This document shows, piece by piece, positions 15,928 through 36,588 of a stretch of DNA of 57,753 nt. Source of the stretch: Candidatus Tayloriibacteriota bacterium. GTDB lineage: Bacteria; Patescibacteriota; Minisyncoccia; Phycocordibacterales; PALSA-1337. Positions within the stretch are counted from its first letter, which is position 1; every line of letters begins with the position of its first letter. Position numbers and translations under genes: made by a program. Under the pieces are notes generated by a model. The model was not told where the DNA came from, did not search any database, and worked only from the letters and a program-made list of their open reading frames with translations. Where the stretch lies: positions 1 through 57,753 of the forward strand of contig CAITNV010000008.1 of the NCBI GenBank assembly GCA_903893855.1, written 5' to 3'.

Positions 15928-17982
15928 ATGAATACTAATAAAATGCAAAATAACACCTCGACAAACATCACCGGAACCGTGACAACTACCGCTAAAGGTA
16001 TGGGTTTTATAGCTGATCCAGCCAATGTAGATAAAGACATCCTCATAGAACCGGGCTTTCTAAACACCGCTCTTAATGGCGATACCGTAGAAGTTACCGT
16101 GACCGGCAGCATGCCACCTCGCAAAGCTGGCGAACCACGCACCAAGACCGCCGAGGTTGTCCGCGTCACTGCACGCGCTAAGAACACTTTCGTAGGAACT
16201 GTCGACACTGAGAACAGTCGCTATTTCGTCATTCCTGATGATAAGAAAATGTACACAGACATTGCGATATCCGAAGACGAAGCTCGCAAGCATAAGCTTG
16301 AGAAGGATCAAAAAGTACAAGTAGTCATTGATTTTAAAACTTGGACTAACCCTGTCAGGAACCCTCTTGGTACTATCACGCGAACTCTTGGTAAAAAAGG
16401 CGACAACGATGTAGAAATGGAATCTATCGTCCTTGAAAAAGGCTTCGAGACAAGCTTCCCGCCCGCAGTCGAAGATGAAGCGAAAGAGATCGGCACTGTC
16501 GAAAAAATAATCACCCCAGAAGAGATTGCGAAGCGCCGAGACATGCGCACCACAATGACGTTCACCATCGATCCATACGATGCGAAGGACTTTGACGATG
16601 CTATTTCATTTAAAAAACTCCCCCAAGAGAATGGACAAAACCGTTATGAGATCGGCGTCCACATTGCGGACGTATCTCACTATGTTCGTGAAGGGACAGC
16701 CCTTGATGCTGAAGCAGTGAAGCGCGGCTGCTCGATTTACCTCGTTGATCGCACCATCCCTATGCTTCCAGAAGTTCTCTCGAACGATGTCTGTAGTCTT
16801 AATCCACACGAAGACAAGCTTTCCTTCTCTGCTATTTTCATACTCGATGACAAAGCGCAGGTTCATGATCGATGGTTCGGCAAGACGGTGATGAATTCTA
16901 CACATCGCTTTACTTATGAGACTGCACAAGCAGCTATAGACGGCGATCCAGAACTCACGGTGAGGTATTCAAGTGGCACACAGACTGCCGACCTCGCTCT
17001 CGCCGGCATGCAGTATCGCGATGAGCTCACGACACTTAATAAGATTGCAAAGATTCTCCAGAAAGAAAAGTTCGCAGCCGGTGCAATAGAATTCGAACAA
17101 GAAGAGATCAAGTTCAAGCTCGACGATAAAGGCTATCCTATCGGCGTTTACAAAAAAGAGCGTATCGATACCCATAAGCTCGTCGAAGAATACATGCTTC
17201 TTGCCAATCGAGAGGTTGCGAAATTTATCTATGATTCCATTCAAAAGAAAGGTAAAAGAGACACTGGCGCTATTTACCGTATTCACGATGTTCCAGATAA
17301 AGAAAAGATTGCGGATCTTGCAAGCTTCGTAAGAGCCCTCGGTTATAATCTCCGCACGACAAAAGACGGCCTTGTTACTGCACGCGATCTCAATCACCTT
17401 CTTGAGCAAATAGAAGGCACCCCTCATGAAGCGCTTATCCGCACAGCAGCGGTTCGCTCAATGCAGAAGGCTATTTACTCTACCAAAAACATCGGCCATT
17501 TCGGTCTTGCATTCGACTTCTACACTCATTTCACTTCCCCAATTCGCCGCTATCCTGACCTTCTTGTGCATCGTGTCCTTGCGAAGCATTTAAATGGCGA
17601 GCCATTCGGTGATCGCGACATTGTCGTATTTCAGCACATTGCTGACTCTTCTACTCGTCGTGAGATCGACGCTTCAGACGCAGAACGCTCAAGCAAAAAG
17701 CTCAAGCAAGTAGAATACATGAGCTCACGTGTAGGTCAGGTCTTTGATGGAACTATCTCTGGCGTTACCGAATGGGGTCTCTACGTTGAAGAGAAAGAAA
17801 GCCGTTCAGAAGGTATGATAAAAATCCGTGACCTCGGTAGCGACTTCTATGAATTTAATAAAAAAACCTATTCAATTACTGGCAAACAATCAGGCGTCAC
17901 CTTCACACTTGGCGACAGCATTCGCTTCAAAGTAAACGGTGCGGATCTTGATAAGAAGACGTTGGATTTCGTTCTCGCATAA
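15928..17982 (+). CDS. rnr: Ribonuclease R (RNB family 3'-5' exoribonuclease)
   Basis: RNB motifs FTIDPYDAKDFDDA, HFGLAFDFYTHFTSPIRRYPDLLVHR, and a C-terminal S1 domain (VFDGTISGVTEWGLYV). Start set at the ATG at 15928 (MNTNKMQ). Confidence 0.9.
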   Translation: MNTNKMQNNTSTNITGTVTTTAKGMGFIADPANVDKDILIEPGFLNTALNGDTVEVTVTGSMPPRKAGEPRTKTAEVVRVTARAKNTFVGTVDTENSRYFVIPDDKKMYTDIAISEDEARKHKLEKDQKVQVVIDFKTWTNPVRNPLGTITRTLGKKGDNDVEMESIVLEKGFETSFPPAVEDEAKEIGTVEKIITPEEIAKRRDMRTTMTFTIDPYDAKDFDDAISFKKLPQENGQNRYEIGVHIADVSHYVREGTALDAEAVKRGCSIYLVDRTIPMLPEVLSNDVCSLNPHEDKLSFSAIFILDDKAQVHDRWFGKTVMNSTHRFTYETAQAAIDGDPELTVRYSSGTQTADLALAGMQYRDELTTLNKIAKILQKEKFAAGAIEFEQEEIKFKLDDKGYPIGVYKKERIDTHKLVEEYMLLANREVAKFIYDSIQKKGKRDTGAIYRIHDVPDKEKIADLASFVRALGYNLRTTKDGLVTARDLNHLLEQIEGTPHEALIRTAAVRSMQKAIYSTKNIGHFGLAFDFYTHFTSPIRRYPDLLVHRVLAKHLNGEPFGDRDIVVFQHIADSSTRREIDASDAERSSKKLKQVEYMSSRVGQVFDGTISGVTEWGLYVEEKESRSEGMIKIRDLGSDFYEFNKKTYSITGKQSGVTFTLGDSIRFKVNGADLDKKTLDFVLA

Positions 17983-18007
17983 TAAAAAGTATTCAAATAA
18001 ATAAAAT

Positions 18008-18033
18008 CTCCTCGATACTTGCGTATCGAGGAG
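18008..18033 (+). terminator. Hairpin downstream of rnr (weak U-tract)
   Basis: ctcctcgatac / gtatcgaggag forms an 11-bp stem with a 4-nt loop, 26 nt after the rnr stop. The trailing T-run is poor. Confidence 0.45.
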
Positions 18034-18060
18034 TGTTCCTTTCGGCTGTTATAACACAGC

Positions 18061-19761
18061 CTATTCAGAGCTACTGTCGGCTGGTTTTCTACCCAGCGGT
18101 GATCGAACTTTATCGCCATTGAGGATCCATGACACAAGTGAGTGGTTCAGTTCATCGATCGCTTGGCGTTGATGGTGACGTTGTGCCACAGGCATCATAT
18201 GAAGTGTTAATGCCTCCATTGTCACACACTCTTGCAACTTCATGAGTGTTGAATCCCTTAGTTCACACGCCATCCAGTGAGGATGTCGAATGTTGAAGGT
18301 TAGGATACCCGCGTCGGCGTCGAGTTTCCACAGCTCAGGTGATCCTTCCATTGCTTCGTGAGCGAACTGCAAGCCGAAACTTGCGTTCTTCACCACCTTT
18401 CGAGGAGAACCTTTTGGGCCACTCCCCGTCTGCGGCTTCTTCACGTGAGACGAATCAGCTCGATTGGGCGATCCTGTTCCAGAAGTCTTTGCACCATCTC
18501 CGGGTTCACCATTACCCGAGTTTGTCGTCTGTTCACTTCCACCGTCGGTACTTTCCGCATCGGCGTGGTCATTACCAGCAACCCCTCGCCCGAACGATTT
18601 AATGACGTCCCTAAGAGGTGCGTGAGCTTGGTCCATGAAGAGATGCTCGAGCACTTTCATTGACCGTAGTCCGAGTTCTTGGAACCGTTGTTCCTGACGT
18701 GAATGCCGTGCCTCATCGAGGTATTTTGATCCGAATCCATCGAACCATTCTTCGATGGCGCAACACAAGCCGACGAATGCATCGTCTTTCTCAAGTGTTT
18801 TGCGATCAGGATGTAGTCTGGATTTCTGCGAGAGAATCTCTCCCTCGAAGAGACCTGATGTGAGTGCAGTGATCACTTCATCCCTGAGGAGTTGAGTGGC
18901 CGATCGGGCAAGGTAGTGAAAAGGAAAACGGAAATCATTTCCCGTCACACCCACCAATACCCGCCCGTTTCGGCCCTTCGCCACCTTTGGAGCAATGAAC
19001 AAGCGAAACGTTGTCTCACCTGAATCACTATTTACAAACTTCTGCACAGGTAGTGCTTGCCCCCGGAATTCTTGAGCTGTGACGTTGAGACGCCGTTCGA
19101 CAGTGCCATCCTTATGAATGACTTCAACTGAGATGATGGTCTTATTACGTCGCATGGTTGTGGCGTAACGGTCTTGAATCCCACCGATAAGCGTGTCTAT
19201 CGGGACGCGGCTGATGTATTCATCGGACGTGAACCCGGTGAGGCTCATTTCCGAGCGCCAGTACACCTTGGTTTTACCTGCGGGCGGTTTATCTTCGAGT
19301 GTCAGGTCAGGCCGTGCACGAAGTGGAATGTTGATATCCATTCTCTGTTTAAGGATGTGAGCGGTTGAGAACGTCCATTCCTGAAACCCATTCTTATGTG
19401 GTGCAGGACAAGAGATGAACGTAAACCGTTCACATTTGCCAAGGGGAGATATGAGCCCAATACCGAACTGACCGAGGCTTCCTTCACCCTTTCGCCCTGG
19501 TTGTGCAACCGACGCCAATGCAGCATTAAACTTCTCCAACGTCGCTCCGTTTCCATTGTCACGTACAGCGAGATGTCGAGTCTTGCGATTGATTGTGATC
19601 CATATCAGATTAGCCTTAACATCCCTATCAAGGGAGTTCTGGACAAGCTCGAGGATAACCTCGAGAAGGGTCGGGTACGTACCAGCCAAGTGCAAGAGGG
19701 TCTGACCATGATTGAACTTGATAGGAGTTTGCGTATCCGTGAGAAGTGCTGATTTTGACAT
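18061..19761 (-). CDS. N-terminal GHKL/Bergerat-fold ATPase (MORC/Hsp90/MutL-like, HATPase_c_3-type), 566 aa; function unknown
   Basis: Motif I LELVQNSLD, motif II VRDNGNGATLEKF and motif III GQFGIGLISPLG all lie within the first ~110 aa. ATG start with AAAGGAA SD, 38 nt after the upstream HTH gene. Confidence 0.75.
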   Translation of the reverse strand: MSKSALLTDTQTPIKFNHGQTLLHLAGTYPTLLEVILELVQNSLDRDVKANLIWITINRKTRHLAVRDNGNGATLEKFNAALASVAQPGRKGEGSLGQFGIGLISPLGKCERFTFISCPAPHKNGFQEWTFSTAHILKQRMDINIPLRARPDLTLEDKPPAGKTKVYWRSEMSLTGFTSDEYISRVPIDTLIGGIQDRYATTMRRNKTIISVEVIHKDGTVERRLNVTAQEFRGQALPVQKFVNSDSGETTFRLFIAPKVAKGRNGRVLVGVTGNDFRFPFHYLARSATQLLRDEVITALTSGLFEGEILSQKSRLHPDRKTLEKDDAFVGLCCAIEEWFDGFGSKYLDEARHSRQEQRFQELGLRSMKVLEHLFMDQAHAPLRDVIKSFGRGVAGNDHADAESTDGGSEQTTNSGNGEPGDGAKTSGTGSPNRADSSHVKKPQTGSGPKGSPRKVVKNASFGLQFAHEAMEGSPELWKLDADAGILTFNIRHPHWMACELRDSTLMKLQECVTMEALTLHMMPVAQRHHQRQAIDELNHSLVSWILNGDKVRSPLGRKPADSSSE

Positions 19762-19799
19762 TGCTTTCCTTTCTTTTGTTACTTTCTTTTGGTTTGTGT

Positions 19800-20552
19800 T
19801 TAAGGTTTGATATCCCTTCGAGCCCGTTCGCTACATAAGCGATTAAGCAGGTTTGAAAGGTCAAAGACACCGTTAGAACGGACGACCTGAGTCAACTGCC
19901 GAAGCAGCTCCCGTTCCTCGGGGGTGAAATCATCCGTGAGGATGAGCTCAGCCAATGGCTTTGCAGTCAAGATCAATTGAGCAAGTGCTTCAATAACCTG
20001 TCTACGCAGGGCTTTGTTGGGCTCATGCTTGGGCAAAGGAAACTCTTGAACTGAAGGGTTCGATTCTTGAACCGAGTCGAAATGTAACTCTTGCAGAGTT
20101 GCCTGCCATTGCTGTTTTTTTTCTTTGGCTTCCGTTGCGTGGAGCTCTAAGAGCTCCAAGAGAGTAACTTCCATCGTAGCAACAGGATTTGATTTCCCTG
20201 CGCACCAACGCATGACGGAGTTTTCAGATACATTCGTGTATTCTGCGGCATCCTTCGGGGATAATGCCTGAATAGCCAGTTGAATGGCAAGCTCATGCAG
20301 TGATTTCGTGAGAGTCTCACGTTCAATGATGGTGTAGCCGATGAGCTCCAGTAAATACTGAAGTTTGAGCAGATTTACGCCTGAGGGCAGAGTCTGCTTG
20401 TTGAACCAGTGATATCCTGTGGTATCCGAAACGCCGATCATTTCGCAGAGCCTGTTACGGGCGCTGCATCGTTCAGCATCGAGCTGTTCTCGTCGGCTTT
20501 CCGAGAAGTGTCTGAGGCACTCCTCGGTTGTGCTTTTGATAGGTTTATTCAT
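19800..20552 (-). CDS. Hypothetical protein with two helix-turn-helix-like segments (250 aa); first gene of the GHKL operon
   Basis: RNRLCEMIGVSDTTGYHWFNKQ and SPKDAAEYTNVSENSVMRWCAGK both look like XRE/Cro-type HTH cores. The C-terminal half is helical with no motif I recognise. Confidence 0.6.
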   Translation of the reverse strand: MNKPIKSTTEECLRHFSESRREQLDAERCSARNRLCEMIGVSDTTGYHWFNKQTLPSGVNLLKLQYLLELIGYTIIERETLTKSLHELAIQLAIQALSPKDAAEYTNVSENSVMRWCAGKSNPVATMEVTLLELLELHATEAKEKKQQWQATLQELHFDSVQESNPSVQEFPLPKHEPNKALRRQVIEALAQLILTAKPLAELILTDDFTPEERELLRQLTQVVRSNGVFDLSNLLNRLCSERARRDIKP

Positions 20553-20616
20553 GTCTTAATTTTGATTTGTTAAAGGACGCTTTTGGCCGGATACACTATC
20601 CAGCCTACCTTTTTTT

Positions 20617-20644
20617 ACTATATCACAATATTCACATTTGTCTA
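20617..20644 (-). promoter_or_regulatory. Putative sigma-70 promoter for the HTH-GHKL operon
   Basis: The minus strand reads TAGACA (20644-20639), a 16-nt spacer, then TATAGT (20622-20617). The spacer contains TATTCACA (20629-20636), identical to the palindrome half-site core. Confidence 0.35.
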
Positions 20645-20672
20645 CATATGACGCTTTCCACGAGCCAAATAC

Positions 20673-20702
20673 TTGACACCACTCAATAAATATGAAGATA
20701 AT
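20673..20702 (+). promoter_or_regulatory. Putative sigma-70 promoter for the divergent 198-aa gene
   Basis: TTGACA (20673-20678), an 18-nt spacer, then GATAAT (20697-20702). The palindrome starts 4 nt downstream. Confidence 0.45.
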
Positions 20703-20705
20703 GCT

Positions 20706-20729
20706 ATTCACAGGAACATTCCTGTGAAT
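20706..20729. promoter_or_regulatory. Perfect 11+11 bp palindrome (candidate operator)
   Basis: ATTCACAGGAA-ca-TTCCTGTGAAT, read directly from the sequence. It sits at the predicted transcription start of the plus-strand promoter and overlaps the first candidate ATG at 20728. Confidence 0.5.
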
Positions 20730-21324
20730 GTCCCGCAAGCACCTTGAAACCTTTAAAAAGGCCGACAAAACCATAAAAATCAACGAAAGTACAACAATGC
20801 GCAACCGCGAACTAATGAAAAAATTGTCTGATCAATTCGAAAGACAATGCCAAGCATTCGAGCAAAAGCGTACCAAATTCCTCGCAGAACTCGATCAGGA
20901 CCTCGCCACCCTCCGAAAAAGTTTTGGAGAAGACCTCATCAACGAGCGACTCGGTGATCTGACTCGTACTGTTACCACAACACCGCCGAAACCTGAATCA
21001 ACTGAAAGCCCAGCCCCAGTCGTCAACAATGTGCGCCCGCAACGCAAGCGTCGGAAAGCAAGCAACTTTAACGATCTGAAACCGCACGTGGTTGAAATCG
21101 TAAAAACCCTTGCTGGTCAACGCTTCACGGTCCGGGACATCAAAGATGCACTGAATCAGAGGGAGGTAAAATTCAACCCGAACAACCTTCATCTTATCCT
21201 GATCAGATATCTAAGCGGCATCAAGGTGGTCGATAAACAGAAGGGTAAAGGTATTAACAAGAACGTGTACGAGGCGGGTGGTGATGTCTCCCTTGTTAAC
21301 TACACCGTAGCGTCCAAAAAGTAG
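20728..21324 (+). CDS. Hypothetical protein: coiled coil, Pro/Thr-rich basic linker and a winged-helix-like C-terminus (up to 198 aa). An alternative start is the ATG at 20797.
   Basis: Heptad-like N-terminus (LMKKLSDQFERQCQAFEQKRTKFLAELDQDLATLRK), linker TTTPPKPESTESPAP..RPQRKRRKAS, then VVEIVKTLAGQRFTVRDIKDALN. A hairpin terminator follows. Confidence 0.55.
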   Translation: MSRKHLETFKKADKTIKINESTTMRNRELMKKLSDQFERQCQAFEQKRTKFLAELDQDLATLRKSFGEDLINERLGDLTRTVTTTPPKPESTESPAPVVNNVRPQRKRRKASNFNDLKPHVVEIVKTLAGQRFTVRDIKDALNQREVKFNPNNLHLILIRYLSGIKVVDKQKGKGINKNVYEAGGDVSLVNYTVASKK

Positions 21325-21350
21325 ACTTCCAGAACATACCGTAACAACAA

Positions 21351-21389
21351 ACACCAGCTTCCATGCATTTGGAACTGGTGTATTTTTTA
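21351..21389. terminator. Hairpin terminator shared by the convergent 198-aa gene and smc
   Basis: caccagcttcca / tggaactggtg (one bulged base) followed by tattttttat on the plus strand. On the minus strand the hairpin is followed by ttgttgtt. Confidence 0.55.
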
Positions 21390-21443
21390 TATTAAAAAGC
21401 TCGCACACAAAACACTAACGTATATAATACCAATTGGTAGCTT

Positions 21444-23696
21444 TTACTTCGCCACCTTCACCGCTTCATCGAAGTTAATTGAGAGAAGTTTTGATGCTCC
21501 ATCGGCGCCAATTGTTACTCCATATATGACCCCCGCTCGAGACATCGTCTCACGATTGTGAGTAATGAGAATGAGCTGCGAATAATTCGACAAGCTAACA
21601 ATCATATCGCCGTATTTTTTAGAATTAGCCTCATCGAGCGCCGCATCAGTCTCATCGAGAATGATAAAAGGCGGAGGATTCACCTGTGAAATTGCAAAGA
21701 GAAGCGCTATAGACGTAAGCGCTCGCTCACCACCTGAGAGCATCATGAGACCTTTCACTTTCTTACGTGGGAGGCTCACATTGATATCAATTCCCTCTGG
21801 ACCCTCTTCCACCATATCATCGCCAGTGTCCATTTCATCCGGCACCGCATCGATAAGCGACAAGTCCGTATCTGACTTGCGCTTTCTTTTTTTCTCACGA
21901 ATGACGCTTAAGCTCGCTGCCCCTCCGCCGAACATAAGATTAAAGAAATACTGGAATTGCGCATTAATCTTCGATATACCAGCCTTGAATTCCACATCGA
22001 GACGATTGTTAAGATCCGCAATGAGAGCGACGAGTGAAGCCTTCGATGTCTCGAGATCAATAATCTCTCGCGCGAGGAAAGCATCTCGCTCTTCTGCTTC
22101 GCGATATTCTTTCATAATATCAGTGGTATTCCCCGCTCCGGAATCTTCAATGCGAAACTTTATTTTCTCTATTGTTCGTCGTCGCTCTTCTTGCACGCCT
22201 CGCGCAGGTACCAAACCCCGCTCAACAACCACGACATAATCAATAGCCTCTCTACCCGCTATCATCCTCGCATCTTCAAGCTCACGCCGAAAAGCCTGCT
22301 CTTCAAGGAGCACTTTATCTTCTTCATTCTTAAGCCTCGTCAATACTGTGCGAATCTCATTTTGTCTTGAAATAATAGTAAATACATTTCGCTCAGCCTC
22401 GCGGTTGGTATCTTGCTCTCGCTCTATTTTCACGCGGAGCTGTGTGTATTCTTCATGCGCTCGAGTAGCTCGATCAGATACAGCTCGAAGCTCATTCTCG
22501 AAGCCCGACTTTTTCTCCCCCAACTCTCGCAATTCTTTATCAAATTCCAAACGCGCCGCAGTATGAAGTGCGTCTCCACTTCGATGACTCGCTACGAACT
22601 CTCTGCAAATGTTGCGAATCTCTTCGAGAGAATCAATAGTAAATATCCGATTAACAATAGCCTCAACATCTCGCAAATACACCGTCTTCGAATCCTCACG
22701 ACTCTGTTTCTCTTTCTCTTTCACAATCGATCGCTCAGTAAGAGCTATAGCTCCTTCAATCTTCCCCAATTCGCGACTTATCCTGTCCTTCTCTTCACGT
22801 GCTAGAGCAAGTGCTCGCTCAAGCGTAATAATCTCCATGCTTTGCGCATCCGCACGCTTCGATTCAGCAAGAATAGTCTTCGCTGCACTGAGGTCAGCAT
22901 CGAGCTTGGCCATTTCATTAGCAGGAGCTAGCCTCTCTTCGGCAATCCGCGCCTTCTCAATACGAATGTATGCATCCTCTGCAGATAAATATTCGCGATA
23001 AAGAGTCACAAGTAGACGCTTCATTTCCTCAACCTTCTCCACCTTTTCAACCTGCTTTTTGAGAAATTTAATATGCGGAGCAATCTCTCTTCGAAGCGAT
23101 TCGACTGACTTCATATTCTCTTCAGTCTTCTCGAGCTTCCTTTCGCTCTCGAGCTTTTTGTATTGATACATTTTAAGGCCAAGCGCATCCTCGATCATTT
23201 CCCTTCGTTCGCGAATATTGGCATTAAGAATCCTGTCCGCTTCACCTTGAGAAATAATGTGATGCCCAGAAGCGCCGATATGCGCGCTTGAGAGAAGCTC
23301 GACAATGTCCTTCAGACGCACCAAAGAGCCATTGATAAAATATTCATTCGAGCTATCGCGATGCACCACGCGCTCAAGTGTCACCTCATCGAAGTCCACC
23401 GAAAGCATTCGCGTACTATTATCGAAAACCACCTTTACCGAAGCGCGATTCGCTCTACCACTCGTCGTTGCCGAAGCGACATTCGCAGCTCCACCGTTAA
23501 AGATGAGATCCTCGCCCTTTTTGCCACGAAGCGACTTGATGGATTGTTCTCCGAGAACGAAACGAAACGCCTCTGCGACGTTTGATTTACCCGAACCATT
23601 TGGTCCCACAATACCCGATATCGGCGAAGTGAAATTAAGCGTCGCTTTTCTCGCGAACGATTTGAAGCCAACAATCTCAAGAGATTTCAGATGCAT
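21444..23696 (-). CDS. smc: SMC-family chromosome condensation ATPase, unusually short (750 aa) with no recognisable hinge
   Basis: N-terminal head MHLKSLEIVGFKSF..GPNGSGKSNV. C-terminal head LSGGERALTSIALLFAISQVNPPPFIILDETDAALD. Heptad-rich middle. Confidence 0.85.
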   Translation of the reverse strand: MHLKSLEIVGFKSFARKATLNFTSPISGIVGPNGSGKSNVAEAFRFVLGEQSIKSLRGKKGEDLIFNGGAANVASATTSGRANRASVKVVFDNSTRMLSVDFDEVTLERVVHRDSSNEYFINGSLVRLKDIVELLSSAHIGASGHHIISQGEADRILNANIRERREMIEDALGLKMYQYKKLESERKLEKTEENMKSVESLRREIAPHIKFLKKQVEKVEKVEEMKRLLVTLYREYLSAEDAYIRIEKARIAEERLAPANEMAKLDADLSAAKTILAESKRADAQSMEIITLERALALAREEKDRISRELGKIEGAIALTERSIVKEKEKQSREDSKTVYLRDVEAIVNRIFTIDSLEEIRNICREFVASHRSGDALHTAARLEFDKELRELGEKKSGFENELRAVSDRATRAHEEYTQLRVKIEREQDTNREAERNVFTIISRQNEIRTVLTRLKNEEDKVLLEEQAFRRELEDARMIAGREAIDYVVVVERGLVPARGVQEERRRTIEKIKFRIEDSGAGNTTDIMKEYREAEERDAFLAREIIDLETSKASLVALIADLNNRLDVEFKAGISKINAQFQYFFNLMFGGGAASLSVIREKKRKRKSDTDLSLIDAVPDEMDTGDDMVEEGPEGIDINVSLPRKKVKGLMMLSGGERALTSIALLFAISQVNPPPFIILDETDAALDEANSKKYGDMIVSLSNYSQLILITHNRETMSRAGVIYGVTIGADGASKLLSINFDEAVKVAK

Positions 23697-24424: not shown

Positions 24425-25384
24425 TTATTTTGATTCAGTAGCGTTCTTTGATTCGGTAGCATTCAAAGCATCAGTAGTTCCCACAAGTCCTCCAGCGAGG
24501 ATCTGGAGCGCTTTCGTCACAATCGGCAAAATATCATTATAAAAATTTAATTCGAGAATGTCGGCAAGCTTGAACCATTTCGCATCATCAAGGCCCGGCT
24601 TATCTGCAAGCTTAATATCAACGAAAGCAGATTCAGCGAGGAAATAATGTACTTGCTTTCGGATCTTACCTTTCTCTGGATCGCTTGCAATATATTCATT
24701 ATTACCAAGATCATCGGTAATCTTCACGTCGAGACCCATCTCTTCCTTTACCTTAGCGACGGTTCCTACACGTACATCTCCTTCAGGAATTTTACCCTTA
24801 GACAAAGTCCAATGACCAAAAATATCATGCACGAAACCGAGATAAATCTCCGAACCATCCCGAGCGAAGACTACAGCTCCACCGAGGTTCTGAATTAGCA
24901 TTTTCTCATATGGAACATCTTCGATACGAGCACGCTTCTTAGGGGCGACATCGTCTTTACCCGGTTCACCGAGCTCTTTGTAGACGGAACCGAGTACGCC
25001 GTTGACGAATTTACCGCTATTTTCTCCACCGAAAGTTTTCGCGAGTTCAATAGCTTCGTTAATAGCAACTTTTGCAGGCACTTCTTTACGATCAGCGAAA
25101 ATAAGCTCGTAGAGTCCTACACGCAAAATATTTCTATCAACAATAGAGATTTTATCAATTGGCCAATCAGGAGCAGCCTTCTCGATAATAAGGTCGAGTT
25201 CCTTACGCTTAGCAAGGATATTAACAATAAGTTCTTCAATAAAAGAAATATCACTCACCCCAGGGGCGAATTCTTTAGCATTACGTTCAACAATGTCTTT
25301 TATTTCACTATCCGGAGAGCTTCGAAAATCCCACTCGAAGAGTGATTGCAAGACTACTGAACGTGAGAGATGTCGATTTGCCAT
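24425..25384 (-). CDS. nusB: Transcription antitermination factor NusB fused to a C-terminal Nudix-fold domain
   Basis: The NusB part covers aa 1-140 (RSVVLQSLFEWDF ... PAKVAINEAIELAKTFGGENSGKFVNGVLG). The Nudix-like part covers aa ~165-300 (GGAVVFARDG..HWTLSKGKIPEGDVRVGTVAKVKEEMGL). Confidence 0.8.
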   Translation of the reverse strand: MANRHLSRSVVLQSLFEWDFRSSPDSEIKDIVERNAKEFAPGVSDISFIEELIVNILAKRKELDLIIEKAAPDWPIDKISIVDRNILRVGLYELIFADRKEVPAKVAINEAIELAKTFGGENSGKFVNGVLGSVYKELGEPGKDDVAPKKRARIEDVPYEKMLIQNLGGAVVFARDGSEIYLGFVHDIFGHWTLSKGKIPEGDVRVGTVAKVKEEMGLDVKITDDLGNNEYIASDPEKGKIRKQVHYFLAESAFVDIKLADKPGLDDAKWFKLADILELNFYNDILPIVTKALQILAGGLVGTTDALNATESKNATESK

Positions 25385-33020: not shown

Positions 33021-34247
33021 TCAAACATCTAGTTGCCCGAGCTGAGCTCGAACTGCAGCGAGAAGTTTGAGTCTTTCCGCCAATTTTGGATTATTAACTT
33101 GTGCCCTCAAACCTTCAACCCTGGCTCTGCAGTCGGTGATCAGTTGTTGCTGCCCTTGTGCTTCAATGTGCAACAAAGCAACTGCAGCTTCCAACTCTCT
33201 GATCTGACGTTCCTTGCTCTCGATCTCAGCAGTTATTGCATCATAGCTTCCTGATCCTTCGAGCGTAGCCAGCTCAGCTTCCGCCGCAGCGAACCGAGTT
33301 TTGAGTGAGCTATAACTTGAACCAATTTTTAACAGTTCCCCAACAACCGCAGCGTAGTCTGGTTCGTCAGGCTCTGACACCGATTTAGATGCCACACCGG
33401 CTTCGGCAGTTTTCTTTGTGCCTTTTCTGTAGGTCCACGCATGGTCGGTTTTTTCGGCATACTCCAAAGCTTCCGCAGTAAGTGAATACAGCGCAGGCCT
33501 TTGATCTGGGTTAACACGCGACACAAGCCCTTGGTGTAGGAACGTCTTCATCAAGACCATGGGGAGTGCGGTACCAACTGGGACACCTTCCTCTACGAGC
33601 GTTTTCCCAAATGAATTGAGGTCGAATGTCGTAGCAGGATCTGTTCCGAACTTCAGAACTAAGGCAATTGTTCCTTTGTGGAGGTTCCTGGGATCCAACA
33701 GATTCCCTTGCTGCGAAGGTGCTTCATCAGCGTCATTCGGAGGTGGGTCTTGTTCGCCAGCTTCTTCATTGCCCTTGCCCTCAGGGTCTACCTCTTCACC
33801 ACCTGATGCTGCAGACCCTTTGTCAAGGTCGGGACTAACTAAACCCTTAGCGGTGGCAGAGCGATCGGCCCTTCTCTTGCTTTTCTCATACTCTGCAAGG
33901 AAAAAGAATGTGCCATCATTTCTTTTCCGGAGATCATTAAACAGGTCAACAGCTGGGACACTCTTATTACTGCCCGGTAACTTATGATAGACATGTAATC
34001 CCACAGCATTGCTATTGTCGTAATTGAGCACCAGTCTTACCCAATGATGCTCATGCTTCTGGATTTTTATACCAGGTTTATTGAGCTCAAAAAGCCGTCC
34101 AGAATCCCAGACTGTTACCTCGAACTCATCGGCAGGTCCATACCCGCACTTTTCAAAAAATGGCTCGAGGACATGATTCATTTCTGGAATGGTTGGAGCC
34201 CCCTTAACTTGATGAGGACCCTGCGTTCGCGAATTGTGTGTAATCAA
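33021..34247 (-). CDS. Hypothetical protein (408 aa): unknown N-domain, acidic disordered linker, winged-helix-like segment and C-terminal coiled coil
   Basis: TTG start with AAAGGAA 5 nt upstream (the first ATG is at 34181), and a TGA stop. Linker GGEEVDPEGKGNEEAGEQDPPPNDADEAP. wHTH-like LHQGLVSRVNPDQRPALYSLTAEALEY. Heptad-rich tail. Confidence 0.6.
   Translation of the reverse strand: MITHNSRTQGPHQVKGAPTIPEMNHVLEPFFEKCGYGPADEFEVTVWDSGRLFELNKPGIKIQKHEHHWVRLVLNYDNSNAVGLHVYHKLPGSNKSVPAVDLFNDLRKRNDGTFFFLAEYEKSKRRADRSATAKGLVSPDLDKGSAASGGEEVDPEGKGNEEAGEQDPPPNDADEAPSQQGNLLDPRNLHKGTIALVLKFGTDPATTFDLNSFGKTLVEEGVPVGTALPMVLMKTFLHQGLVSRVNPDQRPALYSLTAEALEYAEKTDHAWTYRKGTKKTAEAGVASKSVSEPDEPDYAAVVGELLKIGSSYSSLKTRFAAAEAELATLEGSGSYDAITAEIESKERQIRELEAAVALLHIEAQGQQQLITDCRARVEGLRAQVNNPKLAERLKLLAAVRAQLGQLDV

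Positions 34248-34389: not shown

Positions 34390-36588
<2,199 letters not shown>

What the first reader, a model, noticed from the sequence alone, without database searches (positions are those of the whole stretch)
18061..21389. Self-contained orphan cassette between rnr and smc: tandem-HTH protein + N-terminal GHKL ATPase operon with a divergent coiled-coil/wHTH gene (candidate undescribed defence or DNA-surveillance module)
Two core genes bracket three genes that have no housekeeping identity. rnr ends at 17982 with its own hairpin, and smc ends at 21444.

On the minus strand, a 250-aa protein with two HTH-like cores is followed 38 nt later (SD AAAGGAA) by a 566-aa protein. Its first ~110 residues carry all three Bergerat/GHKL motifs: ELVQNSLD, VRDNGNG and GQFGIGL.

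Divergently, a 198-aa protein is expressed from a 175-nt control region that contains a perfect palindrome, and it ends in a hairpin terminator. It consists of a coiled coil, a basic linker and a winged-helix-like end.

The GHKL protein does not fit the housekeeping GHKL classes:
- The ATPase is N-terminal with no DHp/H-box, so it is not a sensor kinase.
- It has no Toprim domain, and the real gyrB is at 34390.
- It has no MutL C-terminal DQHA..E endonuclease motif.
- I see no Hsp90-type NxSRE middle-domain motif.

Prokaryotic MORC/paraMORC-type GHKL ATPases were described by Iyer, Abhiman and Aravind as components of restriction/defence-type operons. They are normally coupled to nucleases, methylases or helicases. 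Here the only partners are putative DNA-binding proteins, which is an architecture I cannot map to a named system.

A hand-counted 100-nt sample in the GHKL gene is 55% GC, against 46% in samples from rnr and smc. This suggests foreign origin only weakly, and an HTH-gene sample gave 47%.
Basis: partly seen in the sequence, partly recalled or inferred. Interest (0 to 1): 0.8.

Follow-up and report, generated by a model that had tools for sequence, protein, structure and literature searches.

The report
Mobile HTH–ATPase gene cassette in CPR bacteria
A 3.4-kb, self-contained gene cassette encoding a DNA-binding protein and an Hsp90/MutL-like ATPase has been inserted between two housekeeping genes; it belongs to an undescribed, horizontally moving family found almost only in ultra-small CPR bacteria, and its function (possibly defence or addiction) is still unknown.

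Summary
Three genes (GHKL ATPase 566 aa, tandem-HTH 250 aa, divergent 198/175 aa) form a cassette with its own promoters and terminators between rnr and smc.

- The HTH–GHKL pair recurs in every one of 29 non-redundant loci that have upstream sequence. The family has about 445 clusters at 50% identity, nearly all from CPR/Patescibacteria.
- None of 80 related genomes carries the cassette at the smc–rnr junction, which is often only 13–43 nt wide.
- The ATPase gene is more GC-rich than its flanks in 23 of 26 relatives.

- The ATPase is not a MORC or paraMORC member. The signature motif and the helicase/nuclease/methylase partners are absent.
- Its fold is closest to Hsp90 N-terminal plus middle domains, and sequence similarity to named families is limited to the first ~100 residues.
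- No defence HMM fits, and the neighbours are housekeeping genes.

New findings: an optional ~100-aa protein missing from the window, a conserved leader motif and hairpin, and cassette-borne terminators.

Most likely this is a horizontally mobile, autoregulated module of a DNA-binding adaptor plus an ATP-driven clamp, serving genetic conflict. A toxin–antitoxin-like addiction module is the main rival.

The parts
17995..21390 (.). Whole accessory cassette (approximate limits), bounded by outward-facing terminators
   Evidence: Similarity to cassettes in L007, L008, L009, L010 and L003 stops just after the T-runs at both ends. The cassette is absent from the smc-rnr junction in 80 relatives. GC3 is 0.50-0.53 against 0.41 for the window.
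18061..19761 (-). GHL-type (GHKL plus transducer-like) ATPase, 566 aa. Domains: ATPase ~18-145, alpha/beta middle ~146-325, long helices 327-389, disordered linker 393-460, conserved C-terminal alpha/beta domain 461-553
   Evidence: HATPase_c_3 at E=1.4e-9. All ATP-binding motifs are invariant. AF2 model has pLDDT 83 and pTM 0.70. The Foldseek top 50 are all Hsp90 family, at E down to 7e-14. The family has 445 clusters at E<=1e-30.
19800..20552 (-). Tandem XRE-type HTH protein, 250 aa. HTH units at ~9-71 and ~83-137, disordered 161-177, strongly conserved C-terminal 4-helix domain 180-247
   Evidence: Pfam HTH_17, HTH_23 and HTH_3 hits. AF2 model has pLDDT 85. Foldseek gives probability 0.9-0.99 for P22 c2, C.BclI, HigA2, DdrO and ImmR. 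A homologue lies immediately upstream of the GHKL gene in 29/29 loci. Pairwise divergence correlates with that of GHKL, r=0.69.
19766..19772 (-). Shine-Dalgarno AAAGGAA of the GHKL gene, inside the 38-nt spacer
   Evidence: Read directly from the sequence.
20797..21324 (+). Divergent gene, probably 175 aa from Met24 (the ORF opens at 20728). Helical N-terminus, basic RKRRK linker, conserved C-terminal domain
   Evidence: Homologues are divergently placed in L007, L008, L010, L014 and L019 (E from 1e-12 to 1e-45), and alignments start at residue 24. No Pfam or PDB match.
20617..20644 (-). Promoter-like site of the HTH-GHKL operon (TAGACA-16-TG-TATAGT)
   Evidence: The same block is conserved in L007 and L014.
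20585..20605 (-). Leader hairpin (9 bp, 3-nt loop) in the operon 5' UTR
   Evidence: It folds with z=-2.6 for the leader. L007, L008 and L014 have different sequences at this position but keep the pairing, with G-U wobbles on the sense strand.
20567..20578 (-). Conserved leader motif GTCCTTTAACAA (family consensus nGTYCTTTRAMA), 28 nt upstream of the HTH start codon. Candidate operator or RNA element
   Evidence: A Gibbs motif search over 27 leaders gave 9.45 bits against 6.78 +/- 0.26 for shuffled leaders. Position confirmed.
20673..20702 (+). Promoter-like site of the divergent gene (TTGACA-18-GATAAT, 11 of 12 matches)
20706..20729 (.). Perfect 11+11 palindrome directly downstream of the + strand -10 element. 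Candidate operator or 5' stem-loop. Specific to this window
   Evidence: It is not present in the L007 leader.
21351..21389 (+). Intrinsic terminator of the divergent gene (bulged 12-bp stem plus T-run)
   Evidence: Folds at -17.4 kcal/mol, z=-4.9. Homologous terminators occur in L007, L008 and L010.
17995..18033 (-). Intrinsic, bidirectional terminator of the GHKL gene (11-bp stem at 18008-18033 plus T-run)
   Evidence: z=-7.1. It is conserved with the cassette in L007, L008, L009 and L003.
18044..18061 (-). Small hairpin abutting the GHKL stop codon
   Evidence: It folds. L007 has nearly the same sequence with one change in the loop; L009 has a different 6-bp hairpin at the same position.

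Best explanation
The region is a horizontally acquired, self-contained accessory cassette of an undescribed family found almost only in CPR/Patescibacteria.

Core and accessories: the invariant core is a two-gene operon. The first gene encodes a tandem XRE-type HTH protein with a conserved C-terminal helical domain. The second encodes an Hsp90/MutL-type (GHL) ATPase with intact ATP-binding motifs. Lineage-specific accessories are one or two small ~100-aa proteins (absent here) and a divergently transcribed ~175-aa basic protein (present here).

Proposed mechanism:
1. The HTH protein binds the conserved leader motif and so autoregulates the operon.
2. Through its C-terminal domain it docks onto the ATPase.
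3. The ATPase, like other GHL enzymes, dimerises through its N-terminal domains on ATP binding and works as a clamp or conformational switch on the DNA-bound partner.
4. The output is a genetic-conflict function: silencing or exclusion of invading DNA, or maintenance of the cassette itself. It works without a dedicated nuclease.

Shown: gene content and order, strict co-occurrence and co-divergence of the two core genes, intact catalytic motifs, the fold, own promoters and terminators, the conserved leader element, accessory and foreign status.

Inferred: physical HTH-ATPase interaction, operator binding, clamp action, and any defence or conflict role.
For: - Pairing: the HTH gene lies immediately upstream of the GHKL gene in 29/29 non-redundant loci. 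No other neighbour recurs except the small protein (13/30 loci) and the divergent protein (6/30). Pairwise identities of HTH and GHKL correlate, r=0.69.
- ATPase competence: E38, N42, D45, D68, G70, G72, G97 and G102 are invariant.
- Fold: confident AF2 model. Foldseek gives Hsp90 N-terminal plus middle domains at E=7e-14 over 400-450 aligned columns.
- HTH protein: XRE-type domains. The C-terminal domain is its best conserved part.
- Autonomy: own promoters, own terminators at both ends conserved across loci, and a conserved leader motif and hairpin.
- Accessory, horizontally transferred status: 0/80 related smc loci carry it. The ancestral smc-rnr gap is as small as 13 nt. The same junction holds unrelated accessory genes in relatives, including an MNT/HEPN-type toxin-antitoxin pair. 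One genome carries the cassette on a different contig. The flanks differ in every locus. GHKL GC exceeds flank GC in 23/26 loci, by 7.6 points on average.
- Family size: about 445 clusters at 50% identity, all 445-632 aa, so it is patchy rather than universal.
Against: - No experiment or multimer prediction supports an HTH-ATPase complex.
- There is no effector (nuclease, protease, membrane protein) in the cassette, which is unusual for defence systems.
- Neighbours are housekeeping genes with no defence-island enrichment.
- No PADLOC model fits beyond about 70 residues.
- No integrase, transposase or terminal repeats explain mobility.
- The conserved leader motif could be an RNA element rather than an operator.
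- A toxin-antitoxin-like or purely regulatory role fits many of the same facts.
Confidence: 0.4

Rival explanations
1. Toxin-antitoxin-like addiction or abortive-infection module, analogous to HipB-HipA. The XRE-HTH protein is the antitoxin and autorepressor. The downstream ATPase is a growth-arresting toxin that is released when the labile HTH protein is lost.
For: - The gene order, with the XRE HTH gene first and the larger enzyme second, tightly spaced, is that of many type II toxin-antitoxin operons.
- The unit is small, autonomous and probably autoregulated, with a conserved leader element.
- It is patchy, compositionally foreign, and inserted between housekeeping genes without scars.
- The same junction hosts an MNT/HEPN toxin-antitoxin pair in L041.
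- Foldseek hits for the HTH protein include the antitoxins HigA2 and HipB.
Against: - No GHL-type ATPase toxin is known to me.
- The ATPase has a full Hsp90-like N-terminal plus middle architecture, a long linker and a C-terminal domain, typical of clamps and remodellers rather than toxins.
- The HTH protein (250 aa, two HTH units plus an extra domain) is large for an antitoxin.
- No toxin-antitoxin HMM matches significantly.
Confidence: 0.2
2. Stress- or signal-responsive transcription switch, analogous to CapK-CapS, ImmR-ImmA or DdrO-IrrE. The ATPase senses a signal and modifies or remodels the HTH repressor. This de-represses the cassette's own accessory genes (the small proteins and the divergent gene) or distant targets.
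For: - Pairs of an XRE repressor and a partner enzyme that control adjacent operons are established; CapK is a GHKL-fold kinase (PMC13373217).
- DdrO and ImmR are among the Foldseek hits.
- The cassette has divergent promoters, a palindrome at the divergent gene's promoter and a conserved leader motif.
Against: - There is no conserved downstream effector operon, and the flanks differ in every locus.
- The ATPase has a transducer-like middle domain typical of GHL ATPases, not of GHKL protein kinases.
- The HTH protein has no STAS domain.
- The accessory genes that would be the regulated cargo are missing from about half of the loci.
Confidence: 0.15
3. Maintenance or mobility machinery of a small, unrecognised CPR mobile element. 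The HTH protein resembles the DNA-binding modules of excisionases, transposases and small terminases. Together with the ATPase it would promote the cassette's own transfer, integration or partition.
For: - The HTH protein hits HTH_17 (excisionase-type), HTH_23 and HTH_Tnp_ISL3 in Pfam, IS1 transposase weakly in NCBIfam, and terminase-small-subunit PHROGs.
- The cassette sits at different intergenic sites with clean boundaries.
- The GC excess over the host is consistent across loci.
Against: - No recombinase, nuclease or replication domain was detected.
- There are no terminal inverted or direct repeats.
- No relative was found in viral contigs.
- All the HTH hits are short, generic HTH matches.
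Confidence: 0.1
4. One reading: a prokaryotic MORC/paraMORC-type GHKL ATPase of a restriction- or defence-type operon.
For: - The ATPase belongs to the HATPase_c_3 clan.
- There are weak sequence hits to MORC2 and MORC3.
- The architecture is a GHKL domain plus a second alpha/beta domain, like GHKL+S5.
- The distribution is sporadic and horizontally transferred, as for paraMORCs (PMC2292703).
Against: - The MORC-defining GhXhhpXXRhl motif is absent.
- No SFII helicase, nuclease or methylase lies in any of 30 loci.
- MutL (E=1.7e-7) scores better than MORC (E=1.6e-3), and all matches stop at about residue 100.
- The structural neighbours are Hsp90, not MORC.
Confidence: 0.05
5. Lineage-specific housekeeping chaperone: an HtpG substitute in CPR bacteria, with the HTH protein as cofactor.
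For: - The closest solved structures are Hsp90, HtpG, TRAP1 and GRP94.
- There are weak NCBIfam hits to an HSP90-family model and to the sacsin ATP-binding domain.
- Pfam SACS matches 7 of 45 members.
Against: - The HtpG model scores 12 bits against a cut-off of 371, and there is no NxSRE loop.
- The distribution is patchy: 1 of 80 related species was detected with the cassette.
- The location is variable and the composition foreign.
- The obligate partner is a DNA-binding protein.
Confidence: 0.05

Closest known systems
Hsp90 / HtpG / TRAP1 (and sacsin repeat regions)
   Same: The closest solved folds over N-terminal GHKL plus middle domain (Foldseek E=7e-14, 400-450 aligned columns). There are weak profile hits to the sacsin ATP-binding domain and to an HSP90-family model.
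   Different: Sequence similarity is confined to the Bergerat motifs. There is no NxSRE catalytic loop. The long disordered linker lies after the middle region, not after the N-domain. The gene is accessory, horizontally transferred, and always paired with an HTH protein.
MutL N-terminal ATPase
   Same: The best sequence-profile match (E=1.7e-7, residues 32-85). The overall layout is the same: ATPase module, flexible linker, small C-terminal domain.
   Different: It is far below the MutL model cut-offs (17.6 against 180 bits). It has no DQHA...E or CPHGRP endonuclease motifs, and it has no mismatch-repair context.
Prokaryotic MORC / paraMORC1-5 (Iyer, Abhiman & Aravind 2008, PMC2292703)
   Same: GHKL plus a second alpha/beta domain with family-specific C-terminal extensions, and a sporadic, laterally mobile distribution.
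   Different: The MORC signature motif is absent. There are no helicase, nuclease or methylase partners in any locus. The partner is instead a tandem-HTH protein.
Tiamat (TmtA) and Mza (MzaB) defence ATPases
   Same: The ATPase domain is of the same HATPase_c_3 type. 40 of 45 family members hit a TmtA model and 16 of 45 hit MzaB.
   Different: The matches cover only about 70 residues of models up to 1486 positions long. The lengths, architectures and operons are different.
CapK-CapS, HipB-HipA, ImmR-ImmA, DdrO-IrrE (repressor plus partner enzyme pairs)
   Same: A two-gene logic of a DNA-binding HTH regulator encoded next to an enzyme that controls it. CapK has a GHKL fold (PMC13373217). The XRE HTH fold is shared with HipB, ImmR and DdrO.
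   Different: There is no homology of the enzyme partner: CapK is a small SpoIIAB-like kinase, HipA a Ser/Thr kinase, and ImmA and IrrE are metalloproteases. The HTH protein has no STAS domain, and no conserved regulated operon lies downstream.

Membership tests
GHKL (Bergerat-fold) ATPase superfamily, HATPase_c_3 clan | Motifs I (ExxxNxxD), II (DxGxG) and III (GxxGxG), and a Pfam match above the gathering score | tested here: met
   PF13589 scores 38.5 bits against a cut-off of 25. All 45 aligned members match it. The motif residues are invariant.
GHL subclass (GyrB/Hsp90/MutL/MORC-type) | A second alpha/beta (transducer, S5-like) domain directly after the GHKL domain | tested here: inconclusive
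   The AF2 model has an alpha/beta domain at 146-325, and Foldseek aligns 400-450 columns to Hsp90 N-terminal plus middle domains. No residue-level alignment was available to identify the catalytic Lys/Arg.
MORC | MORC-specific GhXhhpXXRhl motif (PMC2292703) | tested here: not met
   A regular-expression search of the 566-aa protein found no match.
MORC / paraMORC1-5 | Operon association with SFII helicase, restriction-fold/HNH nuclease or DNA methylase | tested here: not met
   Clustering the neighbours of 30 loci yields only the HTH, small and divergent proteins. A Pfam scan of 138 flanking proteins shows housekeeping genes.
paraMORC3/4/5 | C-terminal RecB-like nuclease, TIR or HxH domain | tested here: not met
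   No Pfam domain beyond the HATPase models was found in 45 members. The C-terminal domain carries conserved D481, N490, H493 and E511 but matches no known family by sequence. It was not searched on its own by structure.
HtpG / Hsp90 | Score above the NCBIfam HtpG cut-off, and an NxSRE catalytic loop | tested here: not met
   NF003555 scores 12.2 bits against a cut-off of 371. No N.SRE was found. Fold similarity alone is met.
MutL | Score above the TIGR00585 cut-off, and C-terminal DQHA(X)2E(X)4E / CPHGRP motifs | tested here: not met
   The score is 17.6 bits against a cut-off of 180. Both motifs are absent.
Sensor histidine kinase | HisKA/DHp domain with a phospho-acceptor His, N-terminal to the ATPase | tested here: not met
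   The ATPase domain starts at residue ~18, and there is no HisKA hit.
Tiamat TmtA / Mza MzaB (PADLOC) | Match over most of the family model | tested here: not met
   The matches cover protein residues ~25-103, corresponding to model positions 71-144 of 1486.
Sacsin-type ATP-binding domain | NF047352 above its cut-off, or a Pfam SACS match | tested here: inconclusive
   NF047352 scores 33.6 bits against a cut-off of 50. Pfam SACS matches 7 of 45 members, with a best E-value of 7e-4.
XRE/Cro-C1 HTH regulators | Helix-turn-helix domain of the lambda-repressor-like fold | tested here: met
   HTH_17 (29.2 against 27 bits) and HTH_23 (26.6 against 24.6 bits) are above their cut-offs. HTH_3 is just below its cut-off (21.7 against 23 bits). 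Foldseek gives probability 0.9-0.99 for P22 c2, C.BclI and DdrO. Weak profile hits fall on both HTH units.
Type II toxin-antitoxin module | The toxin arrests growth, the cognate antitoxin neutralises it and autorepresses the operon | not testable with these tools
   Only the gene order, the autonomy and the mobility fit.
Anti-phage defence system (operational definition) | Enrichment next to known defence genes, and protection on phage challenge | tested here: not met
   No enrichment was found: among 138 neighbours, one reverse transcriptase and one Cas1-like protein, and the rest generic ATPase hits. Protection cannot be tested here.

The most novel reading that the evidence does not exclude
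The HTH-GHL ATPase pair is a new, nuclease-free class of genome-defence or silencing system of CPR bacteria. A sequence-reading HTH adaptor loads an Hsp90/MORC-like ATP-driven clamp onto invading DNA (or onto its own locus) to block that DNA's expression or replication. This would be a prokaryotic counterpart of MORC-mediated silencing, and it spreads as a minimal 2-4 gene cassette without any recognisable recombinase.
Probability: 0.2. Interest if true: 0.8.

Novelty: new variant of a known kind. Interest (0 to 1): 0.6.

Why it matters
CPR/Patescibacteria make up a large share of bacterial diversity. They have tiny genomes and carry few recognised defence systems per genome. Authors of a groundwater defensome survey suggest that unknown systems may exist in them (PMC12259885).

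This is a discrete, well-conserved family of about 445 clusters at 50% identity. Its members are autonomous, move horizontally between CPR genomes, and combine a DNA-binding adaptor with an Hsp90/MutL-like ATPase and no known effector. The family is annotated only as 'ATP-binding protein' or 'hypothetical', and my literature searches found no description of it.

If it proves to be an immunity, silencing or addiction module, it would add a new mechanism class and a handle on gene flow in CPR. Even if it is only regulatory, it defines a new GHL ATPase family with an obligate HTH partner, a conserved cis-element and clean cassette boundaries, so direct biochemical tests are straightforward.

Tried and rejected
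1. The search for related loci with the 45-sequence alignment failed because no stretch was conserved enough. It was repeated with 10 closer sequences. That scan depends on two peptide patterns, so the 26 species found are a lower bound.
2. The viral-contig scan found no relative, so there is no evidence for a phage origin.
3. Rfam returned only sub-threshold chance hits on the terminators.
4. PDB sequence-profile searches for the small protein, the divergent protein and the HTH protein gave nothing significant. Pfam on the small and divergent proteins of relatives also gave nothing.
5. tblastn for the ~100-aa protein in the window was negative. The 82-aa ORF at 20556-20804 (-) overlies the promoter and leader region and has no homologue, so I rejected it as a gene.
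6. A search for flanking direct or inverted repeats that would mark a transposon or integration site was negative.
7. The PADLOC control set was swamped by SMC proteins matching ABC-ATPase defence models. It only shows that such hits are non-specific and gives no quantitative enrichment estimate.
8. CapK-CapS was considered as a homologous system and rejected: CapK is a small SpoIIAB-like kinase and CapS a STAS protein.
9. The last homology search, on the divergent protein, found only one relative because of word-index limits.
10. The odd taxon labels on some MAG contigs (Gammaproteobacteria, Thermotogae, Acidobacteriaceae, 'Saccharibacteria') were not verified and may be mislabelled or misbinned. 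I therefore state restriction to CPR as 'almost only'.

Full report
**1. What is in the sequence**

- a 566-aa protein at 18061-19761 (-);
- a 250-aa protein at 19800-20552 (-), separated from it by 38 nt that contain AAAGGAA;
- a 198-aa ORF at 20728-21324 (+).

rnr ends at 17982 and smc ends at 21444. The 566-aa protein matches Pfam HATPase_c_3 above its cut-off (E=1.4e-9, residues 34-143). It carries ELVQNSLD, VRDNGNG and GQFGIGL. In an alignment of 45 homologues, E38, N42, D45, D68, G70, G72, G97 and G102 are invariant, so an active ATP site is likely.

The 250-aa protein matches several HTH families on two separate stretches. The palindrome ATTCACAGGAA-CA-TTCCTGTGAAT at 20706-20729 is perfect and unique in the window, with no match in 100 shuffles. 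It lies directly after a TTGACA-18-GATAAT promoter-like site on the + strand. A TAGACA-16-TATAGT site faces the other way.

**2. Corrections to the observation**

- Homologues of the third protein align from its Met24. The DNA around the first ATG is conserved in locus L007 as non-coding leader, with a stop after six codons. The gene therefore probably starts at 20797 (175 aa), and the intergenic control region is about 244 nt.
- The hairpin at 18008-18033 is not rnr's own. Closely similar hairpins with T-runs follow the ATPase gene in L007, L008, L009 and L003, and similarity between loci stops right after them. The same holds for the terminator after the divergent gene at 21351-21389. The cassette thus spans roughly 17995-21390 and carries its own promoters and terminators.
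- The ATPase gene is 50.6% GC, not 55%.

**3. Recurrence**

The ATPase has full-length homologues of 445-632 aa. The word-indexed search returned 197. The exhaustive search found 445 clusters at 50% identity with E<=1e-30. Source names are Paceibacterota, Parcubacteria, Sungbacteria, Magasanikbacteria, Portnoybacteria, Vogelbacteria and Microgenomatus, plus a few doubtful MAG labels.

I examined 30 non-redundant loci:
- A homologue of the 250-aa protein sits immediately upstream on the same strand in all 29 loci that have upstream sequence.
- All-against-all clustering of neighbouring ORFs found only two further recurrent families.
- The first is a ~100-aa protein (core motif ITFSL..W.G...P..GQVV.L....F..GWRA) in 13 loci, at the head of the operon.
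- The second is the homologue of the window's divergent protein, in 6 loci, all in the subclade closest to the window.
- In L007, L014 and L019 a paralogue of the small protein also heads the divergent transcription unit.
- The window has no trace of the small gene.
- Pairwise identities of HTH and ATPase correlate, r=0.69 over 377 pairs, so the two genes travel together.

**4. Accessory and foreign status**

The genes flanking the cassette differ in every locus and are mostly housekeeping: RNase Y, purD, leuS, hisS/mreB, ribosomal protein L25 and others.

I fetched the smc loci of 80 related species, with SMC 54-73% identical to the window's:
- None has the cassette.
- In 34 of them rnr lies convergent downstream of smc, with gaps as small as 13-43 nt.
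- Where the gap is larger it holds unrelated accessory genes: an NTase_sub_bind/Polbeta-NTase (HEPN/MNT-type) pair, ORF6N proteins, a DUF559 protein and a 1,294-aa LamG/fn3 protein.
- One genome (JAXLZT01) has the cassette on another contig while its smc-rnr junction lacks it (L014 against L112).

All three window genes have GC3 of 0.50-0.53, against 0.41 +/- 0.06 for the window's long ORFs. In 23 of 26 relatives the ATPase gene is more GC-rich than its flanks, by 7.6 points on average and by as much as 18.7. The arrangement is stable within the window's own population, where four further contigs show the same order. I found no flanking repeats, integrase or transposase, and no relative in viral contigs.

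**5. What the proteins look like**

The AF2 model of the ATPase is good: pLDDT 83, pTM 0.70. Its parts are a GHKL domain, an alpha/beta domain at ~146-325, long helices at 327-389, a disordered G/S/P/K-rich linker at 393-460, and a confident C-terminal alpha/beta domain at 461-553. That last domain has conserved R454, D481, N490, H493, W496 and Q510-E511.

- The 50 best PDB matches are all Hsp90-family chains (HSP90B, HtpG, TRAP1, GRP94), with E down to 7e-14 and 400-450 aligned columns.
- The viral library returns generic GHL ATPases: topoisomerase II, RIIA and Hsp90-like proteins.
- By sequence profile only residues ~30-100 match anything. MutL is best (E=1.7e-7), followed by PMS2, GyrB, MORC2 and HtpG.
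- All curated models fall far below their cut-offs.
- The MORC signature motif, the MutL endonuclease motifs and the Hsp90 NxSRE loop are all absent.
- PADLOC TmtA and MzaB models match only about 70 residues of the Bergerat fold.

The HTH protein model (pLDDT 85) shows two XRE-like HTH units, a disordered stretch and a 4-helix C-terminal domain. That domain is the best conserved part of the protein. Foldseek matches P22 c2, R-M controller proteins, HigA2, HipB, DdrO and ImmR with high probability but weak E-values, and only for the HTH units.

**6. Cis-elements**

The operon leader is conserved at the DNA level between the window and L007, L008 and L014. It comprises a promoter block, then a 9-bp hairpin whose sequence differs between loci while pairing is kept, with G-U wobbles on the sense strand, then a short motif.

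A motif sampler over 27 leaders recovers nGTYCTTTRAMA at 9.45 bits, against 6.78 +/- 0.26 for shuffled leaders. In most loci it lies 11-58 nt upstream of the first start codon, even where the proteins are only about 37-40% identical. The window copy is GTCCTTTAACAA at 20567-20578.

The motif is often part of a small inverted repeat, which fits an operator. It also resembles an anti-Shine-Dalgarno sequence, and in the window it pairs with an upstream AAAGG in the minimum-energy fold. I cannot decide between these two readings.

**7. Function**

Nothing here shows function directly.

- For a conflict or mobile role: patchy distribution, foreign composition, autonomy, and an ATPase clan that recurs in defence proteins.
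- Against a canonical defence system: no effector, no defence-island neighbourhood and no matching model.
- Against a kinase-type regulator such as CapK: the ATPase has a transducer-like second domain, as clamp-type GHL ATPases do.

My best reading (confidence 0.4) is an autoregulated adaptor-plus-clamp module that serves genetic conflict. A HipBA-like addiction module (0.2) and a stress-responsive regulatory pair (0.15) explain many of the same facts. Mobile-element machinery (0.1), paraMORC membership (0.05) and a housekeeping chaperone (0.05) are less likely.

**8. Novelty**

Public sources name the ATPase only 'ATP-binding protein' or 'hypothetical'. The HTH, small and divergent proteins have no precomputed Pfam family. 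Literature searches found no description.

The kind of thing, a GHKL-clan ATPase in a small mobile operon, is known (PMC2292703). The family, its obligate tandem-HTH partner, the lack of any effector, the near-restriction to CPR and the conserved leader element are new. I rate it a new variant of a known kind, with interest 0.6.

Noticed in passing
L037-L116 (region downstream of smc); window 17983-21443: The convergent smc/rnr junction is a hot spot for accessory genes in Taylorbacteria-like relatives. Gaps range from 13 nt to 3.9 kb. The larger gaps hold unrelated cargo: an NTase_sub_bind + Polbeta-NTase (HEPN/MNT-type) pair in L041, ORF6N proteins in L054 and L057, a DUF559 protein in L104, and a 1,294-aa LamG/fn3/InlB-repeat protein in L055.
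   Followed up: partly
L007 2141-2410 (-), L014 4369-4674 (-), L019 4490-4765 (-), and the + strand small genes in 13 loci: A ~85-105-aa protein family (invariant T, F, W, G, R, A in ..ITFSL..W...GWRA..) occurs in two paralogous subtypes. One heads the HTH-ATPase operon and the other heads the divergent operon. It has no Pfam or PDB match and is absent from the window.
   Followed up: partly
window 20567-20605 (-); leaders of L001-L036: The 5' leader is conserved. It has a hairpin whose sequence differs between loci while pairing is kept, and the motif nGTYCTTTRAMA, which persists across proteins that are only about 37-40% identical. It could be an operator or an anti-SD-like RNA element. Rfam has no match.
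   Followed up: partly
window 18044-18061 (-): A small hairpin abuts the ATPase stop codon, upstream of the terminator. L007 has nearly the same sequence with one change in the loop, and L009 has a different 6-bp hairpin at the same position. Its purpose is unknown.
   Followed up: no
window 19800-20552 (-): Public gene calls give this protein as 213 aa, starting at an internal Met. The conserved N-terminus (..ECLxHF..) across homologues supports the 250-aa form.
   Followed up: yes
window 24425-25384 (-): A NusB domain is fused to a C-terminal NUDIX domain in one 319-aa protein (Pfam NusB at 1.2e-34 and NUDIX at 1.1e-6).
   Followed up: partly
window 33021-34247 (-): A 408-aa ORF next to gyrB has an acidic low-complexity middle and a coiled-coil-like C-terminus. 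It has no Pfam family.
   Followed up: no
window 21444-23696 (-): SMC is only 750 aa here and in all 80 relatives, much shorter than the ~1,200-aa SMC typical of bacteria (the typical length is from my own knowledge, not tested here).
   Followed up: no
L003 9813-16945: In one relative the cassette sits beside a GIY-YIG protein, a reverse transcriptase (RVT_1) and a PLD-family protein. This is the only defence-like neighbourhood among 30 loci.
   Followed up: no
L022, L027, L029, L031, L033, L036: Some contigs that carry the cassette are labelled Gammaproteobacteria, Thermotogae or Acidobacteriaceae in their MAG records. The flank GC (33-50%) and the gene content suggest mislabelled or misbinned CPR contigs, but this was not verified.
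   Followed up: no
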